Source: a virus (Duplodnaviria > Heunggongvirae > Uroviricota > Caudoviricetes). From it: DNA of 4,729 nt. The stretch lies in the IMG/VR virus record IMGVR_UViG_2711768053_000006; one strand, given 5' to 3'. Shown piece after piece: positions 89 through 2,767 of this stretch; the stretch's first letter is position 1, and each line of letters starts with the position of its first letter. The notes beneath the pieces were generated by a model. It had not been told where the DNA came from. It ran no database searches and saw only the letters and a list, made by a program, of their open reading frames with translations. Both the position numbers and the translations under genes were made by a program.

Positions 89-373
89 GGAAGTCAGAAC
101 CGTTTATTGCCTCTGCAACCTGTAAAGAAAACACTCCCGTACAGCTCATGCCTGCAAGCGGTATCCGTAAATGCCCTCAGACGCTCCACCAACACCATAT
201 TTCTTTCTTCGTCAAATAACGAAGGTGCGCAAAATTGCGTTATCGAAAGTTGCACCATTTCCGTTATTCCATTCGAAGGCGTGCGCCACAATGCACTGGA
301 TGACGCCCGTCACCAGGCAAAATACGTTACAGCTACGATACAAAAACTGATCCCGAGTCAGGCTGATTTTTAA
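89..373 (+). pseudogene. C-terminal remnant of a DnaQ-like (DEDDh) 3'-5' exonuclease; probably decayed
   Basis: The translation ends ...IPFEGVRHNALDDARHQAKYVTATIQKL..., which matches the Exo III motif (H-x-A-x-x-D-A) of DEDDh exonucleases. The frame is closed upstream by TAA TAA at 83-88, the 95 open codons contain no ATG (the track's start at 107 is TTG), and no Exo I or Exo II motif is visible in any frame of 1-373. Confidence 0.3.
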
Positions 374-384
374 TGTTCAACCCC

Positions 385-417
385 GGTCGTCGCCCACCAG
401 CTATAGTGGCGGCGACC
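385..417. other. GC-rich stem-loop between the exonuclease remnant and xis, with a Chi octamer in the loop
   Basis: GGTCGTCGCC (385-394) pairs with GGCGGCGACC (408-417), 10 bp including one G-U, around a 13-nt loop. CCACCAGC at 394-401 is the reverse complement of Chi (GCTGGTGG), so Chi lies on the minus strand. Confidence 0.25.
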
Positions 418-437
418 ATGATTAGCGAACGACGCTC

Positions 438-686
438 ATGGCAAGACTTATTCTGCTCACTGAGTGGGCAAAAGAGGAATTCGGTGAGCCGGTCCCTACT
501 CCGGGTACGTTAAGTAAATACGCTAAAGCCGGAATGATATTTCCTCTCCCCAAAAAAGTTGGAAGACACTGGCGAGTGGATCCACACGCTCGCTTTGTAG
601 GAATGGTAAACAAGCCGGAGGTGATCGCCACAGATCACCCAGCCTTGAAGAGGATACTGGAAGATGGCGCGCCCGCGAAAATATAA
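438..686 (+). CDS. xis: Excisionase (Xis), lambda-type
   Basis: 82 aa starting at ATG 438. MARLILLTEWAKEEF...GMIFPLPKKVGRHWRVDPHARFVG parallels lambda Xis (MYLTLQEWNARQ...CRIFPPPVKDGREYLFHESAVKV, from memory). It lies immediately upstream of int and overlaps it by 23 nt, as xis and int do in lambda. Confidence 0.8.
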   Translation: MARLILLTEWAKEEFGEPVPTPGTLSKYAKAGMIFPLPKKVGRHWRVDPHARFVGMVNKPEVIATDHPALKRILEDGAPAKI

Positions 687-1794
687 AACTGATGTTCCGG
701 GATTATCTCCGTATTTTGACAAAAGAAATAACAAAGTTTACTGGCGTTACAGGCATCCCATAACAGGCAAAAATCACGGTCTCGGCAGTATTGACCAGAA
801 ACTGGCAGAAACTATTGCAGCAGAAGCGAACAGCCGTCTTGCCAGGCAGCAAATGGAACAAATGCTCAGTCTGCAGGAGAAAATTATTAATGATACCGGC
901 GGTTCATCAACCGTTTCCATTTTTCTGAATAATTACAGAAAAATTCAACAGGAAAGATATGAAAACGGAGAAATCAAACTCAACACGCTGAAACAAAAAG
1001 CGGCCCCTCTCAGGGTATTTGATGAACGTTTTGGCACCAGACCGTTAGATGCCATCACCGTAAAAGATGTGGTATCGGTGCTGGAAGAGTACAAGGCCAG
1101 AGGACATAACAGAATGGGACAAATTTTCAGGAAGGTACTGATCGATGTTTTCCGGGAAGCTCAGCAAACGGGCGATGTCCCGCCAGGCTTTAACCCTGCA
1201 GAATCGGCAAAAAAACCGCAGGTGCGGATATCAAGACAGCGACTGACTTTTGATGAGTGGATGATGATTTATAACGCAGCGGAAAAGGATGGTTACTTTT
1301 TACAGCGCGGCATGCTGCTGGCACTGGTGACAGGCCAGCGCCTTTCAGATATTTGCAAAATGCAGTTTTCGGATATCCGGGATGGTTATCTTCATGTCGA
1401 ACAGCAAAAAACAGGAACCCGGATTGCCATCCCTCTGGCTCTGCGTTGCGATAAATTAAATCTCACCCTGGATGATGTGGTGTCATCCTGTCGCGATTGC
1501 GTTCTTAGTCCGTGGCTATTGCACCATCATCACGCGAAAGGGACAGCTAAGCGCGGCGGGATGGTTAAGCCAGCAACGTTAACTGTTGCATTTAAAAAAG
1601 CGCGGGATTCTGTGGATTACAACTGGCGTGCTAATGGCACCCCACCCTCTTTCCATGAGCAGAGATCTTTATCAGAAAGATTGTTCAGAGAACAGGGAAT
1701 TGATACCAAAATTTTGCTGGGTCATTCGAATCAAAAAATGACCGATATTTACAACGATGCACGCGGCAAGGAGTGGAAAAAACTGGTCATTTGA
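664..1794 (+). CDS. int: Tyrosine site-specific integrase, lambda Int family
   Basis: 376 aa, collinear with lambda Int over its whole length. The N-terminal arm-binding region (MARPRKYKTDVPGLSPYFDKRNNKVYWRYRHPITGKNHGLG) and the catalytic signature are present: R in LVTGQRLSDI, K in EQQKTGTRIAIP, H-x-x-R in FHEQRSLS, and H and Y in LLGHSNQKMTDIY. A Shine-Dalgarno-like GAGGA sits about 9 nt upstream of the ATG at 664. Confidence 0.95.
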   Translation: MARPRKYKTDVPGLSPYFDKRNNKVYWRYRHPITGKNHGLGSIDQKLAETIAAEANSRLARQQMEQMLSLQEKIINDTGGSSTVSIFLNNYRKIQQERYENGEIKLNTLKQKAAPLRVFDERFGTRPLDAITVKDVVSVLEEYKARGHNRMGQIFRKVLIDVFREAQQTGDVPPGFNPAESAKKPQVRISRQRLTFDEWMMIYNAAEKDGYFLQRGMLLALVTGQRLSDICKMQFSDIRDGYLHVEQQKTGTRIAIPLALRCDKLNLTLDDVVSSCRDCVLSPWLLHHHHAKGTAKRGGMVKPATLTVAFKKARDSVDYNWRANGTPPSFHEQRSLSERLFREQGIDTKILLGHSNQKMTDIYNDARGKEWKKLVI

Positions 1795-1801
1795 TGACCA
1801 G

Positions 1802-1835
1802 TTTTGCAGAGGAGTTTTGCAGAGATTTTGCAGAG
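1802..1835 (+). repeat. Three tandem direct repeats of TTTTGCAGAG; candidate Int arm-type binding sites (P'-arm-like)
   Basis: Exact 10-mers at 1802-1811, 1815-1824 and 1826-1835, starting 8 nt after the int stop codon. A fourth near-identical copy (TTTTGCAGAA) lies at 2079-2088. The position relative to int mirrors the lambda P'1-P'3 cluster. Confidence 0.5.
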
Positions 1836-2046
1836 AAAATTAAAAGCGGTACCCGGCAGAGAACATAAACACCCACGGATCCAGTCGTACCGAGTCTTTC
1901 ACGGTATTAACACCAGATTTATACTTAGCCGTGGTATCGATATCCATGTACCACACTGGCAGGTTTCAAAAAATACAATAACCAATTGTATTTAAAACAA
2001 AAAATAAGATTTTGAGATGCTTTTTTGTACCGTTTTTCTGTGTTTT

Positions 2047-2059
2047 TAACCGATTGATT
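2047..2059 (-). promoter_or_regulatory. IHF-binding site consensus match
   Basis: The minus strand reads AATCAATCGGTTA, which fits WATCAANNNNTTR exactly and sits among T-tracts inside the att-like region. Confidence 0.3.
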
Positions 2060-2142
2060 TTGTTGAAATCTTTTTTGGTTTTGCAGAAGGGATTTTTTGC
2101 CTGATTGTAACTTTGCGATTTTTTTCTGGGCTAATTGACGCA

Positions 2143-2184
2143 CAATTCTGGGCAAAAAGCGTGCAACCAAAAAGCCCAGAATTG
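2143..2184. other. Perfect 11-bp inverted repeat with a 20-nt loop; possible RNA processing or terminator-like element, or a protein-binding site
   Basis: CAATTCTGGGC (2143-2153) pairs perfectly with GCCCAGAATTG (2174-2184). The loop is AAAAA-GCGTGCAACC-AAAAA. A third TTCTGGGC copy lies at 2124-2131. The element begins 5 nt from the tfa stop codon. No U-run follows the stem on either strand, so it is not a canonical intrinsic terminator. Confidence 0.3.
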
Positions 2185-2188
2185 AACG

Positions 2189-2767
2189 CTAATTACTGCT
2201 AATCGTCATCGCTCTGATTGAGCGTAAATCCTCCAGATTATTCAGTTCTTCCTTCATCTCACGCTGGCGCTGATAAATCTCGTCATTGCGCTTAACCTGC
2301 GCCTGCGCCATCGCAGCTGCCAGCTCCTGAAGTTGCGCCATTGTCAGTGTGACAAGGTTATTTGCTGCATCCCCCCATCCCAGCGTTGACCGCGTACCTG
2401 CAACCTTTGTCGCCATTGCCACGGGCGCAATACGACTTATTGAGTCTGCACCACCATTCCAGGTACGACCGTTCCATTCGAACGTGAACGGCTGCGCCTC
2501 CTGTTCTGTGCGCCATGCCTCAATTTCCCGTTTTTTGGCATCTTTTGCCGCTGCGATAAGTTCAGGTGTGACTGTAAACGGGGCAATTTCCCCCCATTTG
2601 CCGCTCTGTAACTCTTCCCAGATGCGCTGGCCTGTCGGGGCGGTATCGTCCTGCATGGCGGTATACGGGACGAATTCCGTTTCACCCTCAAATAACACCT
2701 CGCAGTCAACCGCACCATTTTCAAGGTAATGCGCGTTTCTGATGCCTTTTACTGCTCTGATTTTCAT
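2189..2767 (-). CDS. tfa: Putative tail-fibre assembly protein or chaperone (Tfa-like)
   Basis: 192 aa, starting 14 nt downstream of the stf stop with a GAGGAAAT Shine-Dalgarno about 8 nt upstream of the ATG. The size and position are those of lambdoid tfa genes. A central F-x-W-NG...W-NGG segment loosely recalls the lambda Tfa middle region, but the C-terminus lacks the canonical W..YR.LLNRVD-type motif. Confidence 0.55.
   Translation of the reverse strand: MKIRAVKGIRNAHYLENGAVDCEVLFEGETEFVPYTAMQDDTAPTGQRIWEELQSGKWGEIAPFTVTPELIAAAKDAKKREIEAWRTEQEAQPFTFEWNGRTWNGGADSISRIAPVAMATKVAGTRSTLGWGDAANNLVTLTMAQLQELAAAMAQAQVKRNDEIYQRQREMKEELNNLEDLRSIRAMTISSN

What the first reader, a model, noticed from the sequence alone, without database searches (positions are those of the whole stretch)
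1801..2090. Candidate Int arm-type sites: 3 x TTTTGCAGAG directly after the int stop plus a fourth copy about 250 bp away
Three exact 10-mers with 13- and 11-bp periodicity start 8 nt after the int stop; a 9/10 copy sits at 2079-2088 and a partial GCAGAG at 1857-1862. Lambda Int binds arm-type sites clustered in the P' arm next to int (P'1-P'3) and distally in the P arm (P1, P2) through its N-terminal domain, which is conserved in this integrase. The repeat differs from my recollection of the lambda arm consensus, so it would define a distinct arm-site specificity.
Basis: partly seen in the sequence, partly recalled or inferred. Interest (0 to 1): 0.45.

Follow-up and report, generated by a model that had tools for sequence, protein, structure and literature searches.

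The report
Integrase arm-binding sites of ompW phage
The four TTTTGCAGAG repeats are real and are almost certainly the accessory ("arm") sites that this phage's integrase grips while inserting the phage into the bacterial ompW gene, which makes them an ordinary, expected part of a lambda/phage-21-type attachment site.

Summary
(G/A)TTTTGCAGAG occurs at 1801-1811, 1814-1824 and 1825-1835, and GTTTTGCAGAA at 2078-2088, all on the + strand. The partial GCAGAG at 1857-1862 is not a site; it lies in ompW codons.

The window is the phage-form attP of a lambdoid phage that integrates into ompW ("PPompW"). Its order is xis, int, three repeats, a surrogate ompW 3' end, a 28-bp crossover block (1930-1957), an AT-rich arm with an IHF-like site, the fourth repeat, then the tail-fibre genes.

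The arm-site reading is strongly supported by comparison.
- Phage 21 (Int 50% identical) has TTTTGGGGAA x3, annotated as attP subsites, and e14 has TTTTGATAA x3. Both also carry one distal copy about 120 bp beyond the host-gene homology.
- Among 92 distinct Int homologues (mostly Enterobacterales genomes), 77 carry a triple with 13/11-12 spacing within about 170 nt after int.
- The motif class (GCAG, GGGG, GATAA, ACTG) follows the Int N-terminal domain, whereas the core-binding and catalytic domains follow the integration site.

No binding experiment exists. This is a new member of a known kind, of modest interest. The family-wide set of arm specificities is the most useful by-product.

The parts
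438..686 (+). xis (excisionase, 82 aa); it overlaps the start of int
   Evidence: ORF. Pfam Exc PF07825, E=3e-7. Annotated xisE in the PPompW records.
664..1794 (+). int, a lambda-type tyrosine integrase (376 aa). The N-terminal arm-binding domain is aa 2-71 (nt 667-876).
   Evidence: Pfam Arm-DNA-bind_1 E=7e-22 and Phage_integrase E=1e-16. 50% identical to phage 21 Int and 36% to lambda Int. The N-domain hits PDB 1KJK/2WCC.
1801..1811 (+). Arm-type site next to int (positional equivalent of lambda P'3): GTTTTGCAGAG
   Evidence: Conserved in PPompW, phage 204576 and E. albertii, and as TTTTGCAG in 31 non-redundant loci of this class.
1814..1824 (+). Arm-type site, middle copy (P'2-like): GTTTTGCAGAG
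   Evidence: The 13-nt offset from the first site holds in every triple the scan reported.
1825..1835 (+). Arm-type site nearest the core (P'1-like): ATTTTGCAGAG
   Evidence: The offset from the middle site is 11 nt here and 11 or 12 nt across the family.
1838..1958 (-). Phage-borne surrogate 3' end of ompW (stop codon 1840-1842). It replaces the host C-terminus after integration. This is the '121-bp att sequence' of the literature.
   Evidence: Annotated duplication in LC567822. PMC8112680. In-frame OmpW C-terminus. 78.6% identical to native ompW.
1930..1957 (.). Crossover (core) region: GTGGTATCGATATCCATGTACCACACTG, the only block shared by attP, attB, attL and attR next to the point where they diverge. 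It contains the inverted GTGGTA...TACCAC pair, which are possible core-type sites (inference).
   Evidence: Four-way alignment A4. Between 1888 and 1929, attL is phage-type and attR is host-type, so exchange happened to the right of 1929 and to the left of 1958.
2047..2059 (-). IHF-consensus site (AATCAATCGGTTA), 19 bp from the distal arm site
   Evidence: It is the only WATCAANNNNTTR match in the window (about 1 in 6 shuffles give one). Its AAC and TGATT positions and its place are invariant in the P arms of window, 204576, P-EibA, PPompW, phage 21, e14 and Kp4865-4.
2078..2088 (+). Distal arm-type site (lambda P1 equivalent): GTTTTGCAGAA. It has the same orientation as the triple and lies about 138-140 bp from the core centre.
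   Evidence: It is an exact GTTTTGCAGAGG in P-EibA, where homology to the window ends right after it. An equivalent single copy lies 119-121 bp beyond the host-gene homology in PPompW attR, phage 21, e14 and Kp4865-4.
2058..2067 (+). Weak, doubtful extra site TTTTGTTGAA (7/10), 21 nt upstream of the distal site. It touches the IHF-like site.
   Evidence: It matches TTTTGNNGAR. It is only partly conserved and has no class-specific counterpart in phage 21 or e14. It is listed for completeness, not claimed.

Best explanation
The four repeats are the arm-type binding sites of the attP of an ompW-integrating lambdoid phage. Each is bound by the N-terminal domain of one Int protomer, while that protomer's core-binding and catalytic domains hold the core at about 1930-1957. 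The three tandem sites next to int correspond to lambda P'3-P'2-P'1. The single site at 2078-2088 corresponds to lambda P1. An IHF-bent AT-rich arm, with its IHF site at 2047-2059, is inferred to bring the distal site back to the core. On the other side, the P' arm has to span the 121-bp ompW surrogate that the phage carries to keep ompW intact in lysogens. In this it resembles phage 21 and e14, which span an icd surrogate.

Shown here: the sequence anatomy, the crossover interval, conservation, and co-variation with the Int N-domain. Inferred: actual Int and IHF binding, which sites serve integration and which serve excision, and how the long P' arm is folded.
For: 1. Int has the lambda arm-binding domain.

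2. The position, orientation and spacing match lambda. In int-sense, lambda reads ATAATGATTT/ATTTTGACTG/ATAGTGACCT directly after the stop, and P1 lies about 138 bp past the core in the same orientation.

3. Phage 21 is the closest studied relative. It has GTTTTGGGGAAG x3 (spacing 13, 12) 12 nt after int, annotated in OL657228 as 'attP ... 3 subsites P1P2P3'. This is followed by a terminator, the icd surrogate and a fourth copy.

4. In e14, cargo genes separate int from att. Its TTTTGATAA triple stays next to the icd end, not next to intE, so the repeats belong to att.

5. Of 92 distinct homologues, 77 have a triple with 13/11-12 spacing within 170 nt of the stop, and 2 more have it about 600 nt downstream. 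Information content is concentrated in the three sites and low in the flanks.

6. The motif class matches an N-domain signature at residues 13-17 in every triple-bearing locus of the three main classes: PGLSxY for GCAG, PNLYxK for GGGG and PNLYPL for GATAA. The two ACTG loci read PNLFCF.

7. There is a double dissociation. N-domain identity is 0.65 for same-arm/different-attB pairs against 0.55 for different-arm/same-attB pairs. For CB the figures are 0.50 against 0.56, and for CAT 0.56 against 0.62. One icd flank cluster contains all four motif classes, while the GCAG class spans at least 9 different flanks.

8. In the P arm, the only blocks invariant across classes are the IHF-like consensus and the TTTTG of the distal site. 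Homology between P-EibA and the window stops right after that site.
Against: There is no biochemical evidence for this phage.

Motif class also correlates with overall Int phylogeny. Identity in the rest of the protein is 0.66 within classes against 0.56 between them, so part of the co-variation is shared descent.

xis is tightly linked to the int N-terminus, so co-variation alone cannot separate Int from Xis as the binder.

No inverted P2-like site, which lambda needs for excision, was found.

No IHF consensus was found in the long P' arm.

The triple lies about 95-143 bp from the core centre, farther than in lambda.

Thirteen of the 92 homologues show no triple within 1.2 kb. This could reflect cargo insertion or decayed prophages.
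Confidence: 0.86

Rival explanations
1. The tandem triple is a binding array for the excisionase (Xis/RDF), like the X1-X1.5-X2 microfilament of lambda, rather than for Int.
For: Three direct repeats about one helical turn apart resemble a Xis array. xis (438-686) is physically linked to the int 5' end, so it would co-vary with the motif just as the N-domain does.
Against: Lambda's Xis sites lie in the P arm between P2 and the core, not next to int. The lambda sites at this position and in this orientation are the P' arm sites. A single isolated distal copy next to an IHF site fits P1, not Xis. If the repeats were Xis sites, the well-conserved arm-binding domain would have no candidate target, because nothing else in attP is both repeated and class-specific. 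The phage 21 record annotates its three repeats next to int as attP subsites P1-P3. From memory only (Wang et al. 1997), the phage 21 dodecamers are regarded as Int arm recognition sites.
Confidence: 0.07
2. The repeats act in transcription or RNA. Either they are a CII-type activator array (TTGC repeats), or they form part of a 3' hairpin/terminator that controls int mRNA.
For: Each unit contains TTGC. A perfect 12-bp palindrome (1779-1790/1794-1805) spans the int stop and the first TTTT, and the region folds better than shuffles (z = -2.8).
Against: The TTGC spacing is N9 and N7, not the N6 of CII sites. The GGGG, GATAA and ACTG classes have no TTGC yet keep the same geometry. No terminator-like site was found and there is no Rfam hit. 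In e14 the triple is 3 kb from int. The fourth copy, 250 bp away, is unexplained by this reading.
Confidence: 0.04
3. The repeats are a chance or slippage-generated tandem repeat with no function.
For: The region is short and AT-rich, and one shuffle in 200 gave 4 hits.
Against: The architecture recurs in 77 of the 92 distinct Int homologues sampled (phage, viral-contig and genome loci), with fixed 13/11-12 spacing and discrete motif classes. Conservation is confined to the sites. The distal copy sits at a fixed 119-121 bp position in five systems.
Confidence: 0.01

Closest known systems
attP of coliphage 21 (icd-integrating; GenBank OL657228)
   Same: Int is 50% identical. Three direct repeats follow the int stop with 13/12 spacing. 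A surrogate 3' end of the target gene lies between the repeats and the crossover. One further copy in the same orientation lies about 120 bp beyond the homology, preceded by an IHF-consensus site. The repeat begins TTTTG.
   Different: The motif is TTTTGGGGAA, not TTTTGCAGAG, with a different N-domain signature (PNLYCKLDKRTGKVYWQY). The target is icd, not ompW. Its P' arm is longer (165-bp icd fragment plus a terminator), so its attP spans about 398 bp against about 288 bp here.
attL/attR of the cryptic prophage e14 of E. coli K-12
   Same: It has the same 3+1 architecture and 13/11 spacing, and the distal copy lies 119 bp from icdC. The Int family is the same. The PPompW genes are even annotated intE/xisE.
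   Different: The motif is TTTTGATAA. Cargo genes (ymfD, ymfE, lit) lie between the triple and intE. The target is icd.
Bacteriophage lambda attP (P1, P2, P'1-P'3; consensus C/AAGTCACTAT)
   Same: It is a heterobivalent Int with the same N-domain fold family. The P' triple abuts the int stop. P1 has the same orientation about 138 bp from the core. IHF sites lie in the arms.
   Different: Int is only 36% identical. The arm consensus differs. Lambda has an inverted P2 and a short (about 80 bp) P' arm, and carries no host-gene surrogate. Its crossover identity is 15 bp, against 28 bp here.
PPompW prophages of STEC O145:H28 / O157:H7 (Nakamura et al., PLoS Pathog 2021, PMC8112680)
   Same: It is the same phage lineage. 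Int is 98.9% identical and the int-att region is 96% identical at the DNA level. Excision and the attP junction were shown by PCR.
   Different: A term search of that paper found no mention of 'arm'. It defines only a '121-bp att sequence'. The present analysis narrows the crossover to 28 bp and assigns the arm sites.

Membership tests
Lambda-type heterobivalent integrase attP with arm-type sites | The integrase carries an N-terminal arm-DNA-binding domain | tested here: met
   PF09003, aa 2-71, 77.7 bits against a cut-off of 22. phmmer hit to lambda Int N-domain structures 1KJK/2WCC.
Lambda-type heterobivalent integrase attP with arm-type sites | A repeated sequence, different from the core, is present in both arms flanking the crossover | tested here: met
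   Triple at 1801-1835 and single copy at 2078-2088, on either side of the crossover block 1930-1957.
Lambda-type heterobivalent integrase attP with arm-type sites | Arm-site sequence co-varies with the Int N-domain, independently of core/attB specificity | tested here: met
   Four motif classes match N-domain signatures. The 2x2 comparison shows that the N-domain follows the arm motif while CB/CAT follow attB. All four classes occur at icd. Shared descent contributes to the signal.
Lambda-type heterobivalent integrase attP with arm-type sites | DNA-bending (IHF) sites lie between the arm sites and the core | tested here: inconclusive
   One consensus site in the P arm (2047-2059), conserved across classes. 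None found in the P' arm at zero mismatches.
Lambda-type heterobivalent integrase attP with arm-type sites | An inverted P2-type arm site is used with Xis for excision (as in lambda) | tested here: not met
   No inverted copy in 1795-2190 with 2 or fewer mismatches. The only minus-strand match with 3 mismatches (2148-2158) lies beyond the distal site, outside the inferred attP. No class-specific inverted block appears in the P-arm alignment. This is a difference from lambda itself, not from the wider class.
Lambda-type heterobivalent integrase attP with arm-type sites | Int protects or binds the sites (footprint, EMSA) | not testable with these tools
   This needs purified protein. No publication on this phage's arm sites was found.
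Phage 21 / e14-type attP (target-gene 3' surrogate type) | Three direct repeats beginning TTTT (TTTTG in three of the four classes), with 13 then 11-12 nt spacing, on the int side of att | tested here: met
   Window spacing is 13, 11. Phage 21 is 13, 12 and e14 is 13, 11. The same holds in 77 of 92 homologues.
Phage 21 / e14-type attP (target-gene 3' surrogate type) | A diverged copy of the target gene's 3' end lies between the triple and the crossover and restores the ORF in lysogens | tested here: met
   ompW surrogate at 1838-1958, in frame and ending ...SAGYRF*. This is analogous to the icd fragment of phage 21.
Phage 21 / e14-type attP (target-gene 3' surrogate type) | A single distal copy in the same orientation lies about 120 bp beyond the homology boundary | tested here: met
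   121 bp in the window and PPompW. 119 bp in phage 21 and e14. 119 bp from the record end in Kp4865-4.

The most novel reading that the evidence does not exclude
The 21/e14/PPompW integrase family carries a small natural set of at least four mutually distinct arm specificities: TTTTGCAG, TTTTGGGG, TTTTGATAA and TTTTACTG. All sit on an otherwise fixed scaffold (3+1 sites, 13/11-12 spacing, P1 at about 120 bp). The specificity appears to be encoded mainly by a few residues at positions 13-17 of the N-terminal domain (PGLSxY, PNLYxK, PNLYPL, PNLFCF). Specificities have been reassorted with different core/attB specificities, so that phages sharing one attB (icd) avoid cross-excision. If true, this is a readable recognition code for beta-sheet/major-groove binding and a source of orthogonal integrase-attP pairs.
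Probability: 0.55. Interest if true: 0.5.

Novelty: new member of a known kind. Interest (0 to 1): 0.3.

Why it matters
For this phage, the result turns a loosely defined '121-bp att sequence' into a full attP map: three P' sites, the ompW surrogate, a 28-bp crossover block, an IHF site and a P1-like site, spanning about 288 bp. That map is what is needed to build integration vectors for the ompW site, or to predict which prophages in STEC genomes can excise each other.

More generally, the comparison shows that arm-site specificity in this integrase family is modular and comes in discrete classes. This explains how several phages can share one chromosomal site without cross-reacting, as in the old 21 versus e14 observation. 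It also offers natural orthogonal parts. None of this changes the accepted mechanism of lambda-type recombination.

Tried and rejected
- The partial GCAGAG at 1857-1862 is rejected as a fifth site. It lies in ompW codons and is not conserved.
- A P2-like inverted copy was searched for with up to 3 mismatches. The only minus-strand match between 1795 and 2190 (2148-2158, 3 mismatches) lies beyond the distal site.
- TTTTGTTGAA at 2058-2067 was considered as a second distal site. It is only 7/10, touches the IHF-like site and has no class-specific counterpart in phage 21 or e14, so it is not claimed.
- A CII-type TTGC array is rejected: the spacing is wrong and TTGC is absent from the other motif classes.
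- No intrinsic terminator or known RNA family was found.
- tRNA targets were checked for the related loci and none was found in the 60 loci scanned (L088-L147). The main shared target is icd.
- Literature: Wang et al. 1997 (J Bacteriol 179:5705) and Fadeev et al. 2009 (N-domain/DNA NMR structure) are not held in the library. What I say about them is from memory. Text searches for the motifs and for phage 21 arm sites gave nothing useful.
- Most IMG/VR contigs end exactly at the int stop, at predicted prophage borders, and were useless for the downstream region. The genome contigs carried the analysis.

Full report
**1. What is in the window**

The ORFs and domain hits give the following order:
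- xis at 438-686 (+), Pfam Exc.
- int at 664-1794 (+), 376 aa. It has the lambda Arm-DNA-binding domain at aa 2-71 (E=7e-22) plus the catalytic domain.
- A 394-bp non-coding stretch at 1795-2188.
- On the minus strand, a DUF4376 protein that I take to be a tail-fibre assembly gene (2189-2767) and a tail fibre (from 2782 onward).

The best database relatives are the 'PPompW' prophages of Shiga-toxin E. coli. Their int-att DNA is 96% identical and their Int is 98.9% identical. Phage 204576 matches through the whole attP. In the prophage records the match stops at window 1965. A '121-bp duplication due to insertion' is annotated there and corresponds to window 1838-1958. The window is therefore the phage (circular) form, with int and the tail genes joined across attP. 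PMC8112680 describes these prophages, shows excision and the attP junction by PCR, and defines a 121-bp att sequence. A term search of that paper found no mention of 'arm'.

**2. The observation**

TTTTGCAGAG is exact at 1802, 1815 and 1826. TTTTGCAGAA is at 2079. All four are on the + strand, and nothing else in the window comes within one mismatch. The expectation is 0.71 hits, and 1 of 200 shuffles reached 4. With the preceding base the unit is (G/A)TTTTGCAGAG, and the spacings are 13, 11 and 253.

The 'partial GCAGAG' at 1857-1862 lies inside a reading frame on the minus strand that encodes the last residues of OmpW (...FSAGYRF*). It reads GCGGAG or GCTGAG in relatives and in native ompW. 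It is not a site.

**3. Where the crossover is**

I aligned attP (window), attL and attR of PPompW_132418, and an unoccupied ompW.
- The so-called 121-bp repeat is only about 80% identical between phage and host (one search gives 78.6%).
- attL carries the phage version up to window 1929, and attR carries the host version.
- All four sequences share GTGGTATCGATATCCATGTACCACACTG (1930-1957). They diverge immediately to the right of it.

Strand exchange therefore happens inside this 28-bp block. The block contains GTGGTA...TACCAC in inverted orientation, which are plausible core-type sites; this last point is inference. The segment 1838-1929 is a surrogate 3' end that keeps ompW open after integration.

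**4. Comparison with relatives**

The closest studied relative is phage 21 (Int 50% identical). Its GenBank record annotates 'attP consists of 3 subsites P1P2P3; consensus YYTTCCCCAAAA' starting 12 nt after the int stop. In int-sense this reads GTTTTGGGGAAG x3 with spacing 13, 12. It is followed by a terminator, the icd 3' surrogate and, 119 bp beyond the end of the icd homology, a fourth copy in the same orientation.

Other relatives show the same plan:
- e14 in E. coli K-12 has TTTTGATAA x3 (spacing 13, 11) next to the icd end, and one copy 119 bp from icdC at the other prophage end. In e14, three cargo genes separate the triple from intE. The repeats therefore belong to att and not to the int 3' region.
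- Klebsiella phage Kp4865-4 has TTTTGATAA x3 after int and a copy 119 bp from the other record end.
- PPompW_132418 attR has the distal TTTTGCAG 121 bp from the homology boundary.
- The P-EibA prophage end is 78% identical to window 1838-2087. It carries an exact GTTTTGCAGAGG, and its similarity to the window ends right after it. That is what one expects at the outer edge of a functional attP.

Lambda itself, read in int-sense, has P'3-P'2-P'1 (ATAATGATTT/ATTTTGACTG/ATAGTGACCT) abutting the int stop. P2 is inverted about 107 bp past the core, and P1 lies about 138 bp past the core in the same orientation as the P' sites. The window's distal site lies about 138-140 bp from the centre of the crossover block, in the same orientation. 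It is therefore the P1 equivalent.

**5. Family-wide test**

I fetched 80 genome loci, almost all from Enterobacterales, plus viral contigs that encode Int homologues.
- Of 92 distinct proteins, 77 have a triple repeat with 13 then 11-12 nt spacing within 170 nt of the int stop.
- Two more have it about 600 nt downstream, and 13 have none within 1.2 kb.
- The motifs fall into discrete classes: TTTTGCAG (35), TTTTGGGG (23), TTTTGATAA (16) and TTTTACTG (2), plus one TTTTGGAG.
- Information content is high in the three sites and low in the spacers and flanks.

The class matches an N-domain signature in every triple-bearing locus of the three main classes:
- PGLS[CP]Y.D.R for GCAG.
- PNLY[CR]KLDKR for GGGG.
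- PNLYPL[FY]SRK for GATAA, which includes e14 IntE.
- PNLFCFADPR for the two ACTG loci.

Of the 8 alignment columns that fully separate the GCAG class from the GGGG and GATAA classes, 3 are residues 13, 15 and 17.

The class is not tied to the integration site. One flank cluster of 48 loci, which contains phage 21 and which I take to be icd, contains all four classes. The GCAG class spans at least 9 unrelated flanks. A 2x2 comparison gives a double dissociation:

| Domain | Same arm, different attB | Different arm, same attB |
|---|---|---|
| N-domain | 0.65 | 0.55 |
| Core-binding | 0.50 | 0.56 |
| Catalytic | 0.56 | 0.62 |

This is the pattern expected if the N-domain reads the repeats while the rest of the protein reads the core.

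In the P arm, an alignment across classes leaves only two invariant blocks. One is an IHF-type consensus (YAANNNNTTGATW; window 2047-2059, the only such match in the window). The other is the TTTTG of the distal site.

**6. Mechanism proposed**

Four Int protomers bridge the arm and core sites. The three tandem sites and the distal site hold N-domains. The core at 1930-1957 holds the CB and CAT domains. IHF at 2047-2059 bends the P arm.

The P' arm is long, with the triple about 95-143 bp from the core centre, because it must contain the ompW surrogate. From memory, the same reasoning was given for phage 21's unusually long attP by Wang et al. 1997. That paper also reported that 21 and e14 do not cross-excise efficiently and that the outermost dodecamers are needed. 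I could not retrieve it.

Two things are missing relative to lambda: an inverted P2-like site and a recognisable IHF site in the P' arm. How excision is directed is therefore open.

**7. Rivals**

- A Xis array is the only serious alternative, because xis is linked to the int 5' end and would co-vary too. Three things argue against it: positional homology with lambda's P' arm sites at the int stop, the isolated P1-like copy, and the lack of any other candidate target for the conserved arm-binding domain.
- CII-type or terminator roles are rejected.
- Chance is excluded by the family-wide recurrence.

**8. Verdict**

It is a new member of a known kind. The architecture is that of phage 21 and e14, and the motif class and ompW target have, as far as my searches show, not been described as arm sites. 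Interest is modest (0.3). The by-product, a discrete and reassorting set of arm specificities readable from a few N-domain residues, is the part worth following.

Noticed in passing
window 1840-1965 (- strand): The phage-borne ompW 3' end is not a neutral copy. It encodes ...DTTAKYKSGVNTVKDSVRL..., whereas native OmpW has ...DTTANYKLGGAQQHDSVRL.... That is 7 changes within a 10-residue stretch, while the flanking residues are identical. Lysogens therefore make a chimeric OmpW. From memory, this stretch would lie in a surface-exposed loop and OmpW serves as a colicin/phage receptor. If so, the swap could alter receptor properties, a form of lysogenic conversion.
   Followed up: partly
window 1779-1805: A perfect 12-bp palindrome (AAAACTGGTCAT ttg ATGACCAGTTTT) spans the int stop codon and the TTTT of the first arm site. 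As RNA it forms the dominant hairpin of the region (z = -2.8), but it does not meet the terminator pattern. Its function is unknown. It could affect int mRNA stability or Int binding to the first site.
   Followed up: partly
window 2124-2195: There are three copies of TTCTGGGC/GCCCAGAA and a 22-nt inverted repeat (2132-2153/2174-2195). They form a strong hairpin (-32.8 kcal/mol on the minus strand, z = -3.8; -26.9 on the plus strand). The element lies just outside the distal arm site and overlaps the tfa stop. Relative to int and att, this is the position that, from memory, sib/tI occupies in lambda, so a retroregulation element is conceivable. The sequence is poorly conserved in phage 204576.
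   Followed up: partly
window 1838-1958; E. coli genomes: 347 of 5426 complete E. coli genomes contain a chromosomal place covering at least 80% of the intact attP region. This fits the paper's report that this sequence also occurs inside other prophages as a potential secondary attB ('attB-in-PP_3').
   Followed up: no
L115 2934-2958; L156 2935-2959; L171 652-676 (e14): In some relatives the arm-site triple lies 0.6-3 kb from int, because cargo genes (in e14: ymfD, ymfE, lit) have been inserted between int and the P' arm sites. That junction seems to be a preferred slot for moron insertion.
   Followed up: partly
window 265-414: The left end of the window matches the 3' part of exodeoxyribonuclease VIII (recE-like) genes of many lambdoid phages at 86-90% identity. 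Bases 1-264 have no phage match at this stringency.
   Followed up: no
L162, L167 (Symbiopectobacterium): A fourth arm-motif class, TTTTACTG x3, has its own N-domain signature (PNLFCFADPRTKRIYWQY). It is seen only in two icd-flank loci of an insect-symbiont genus.
   Followed up: no
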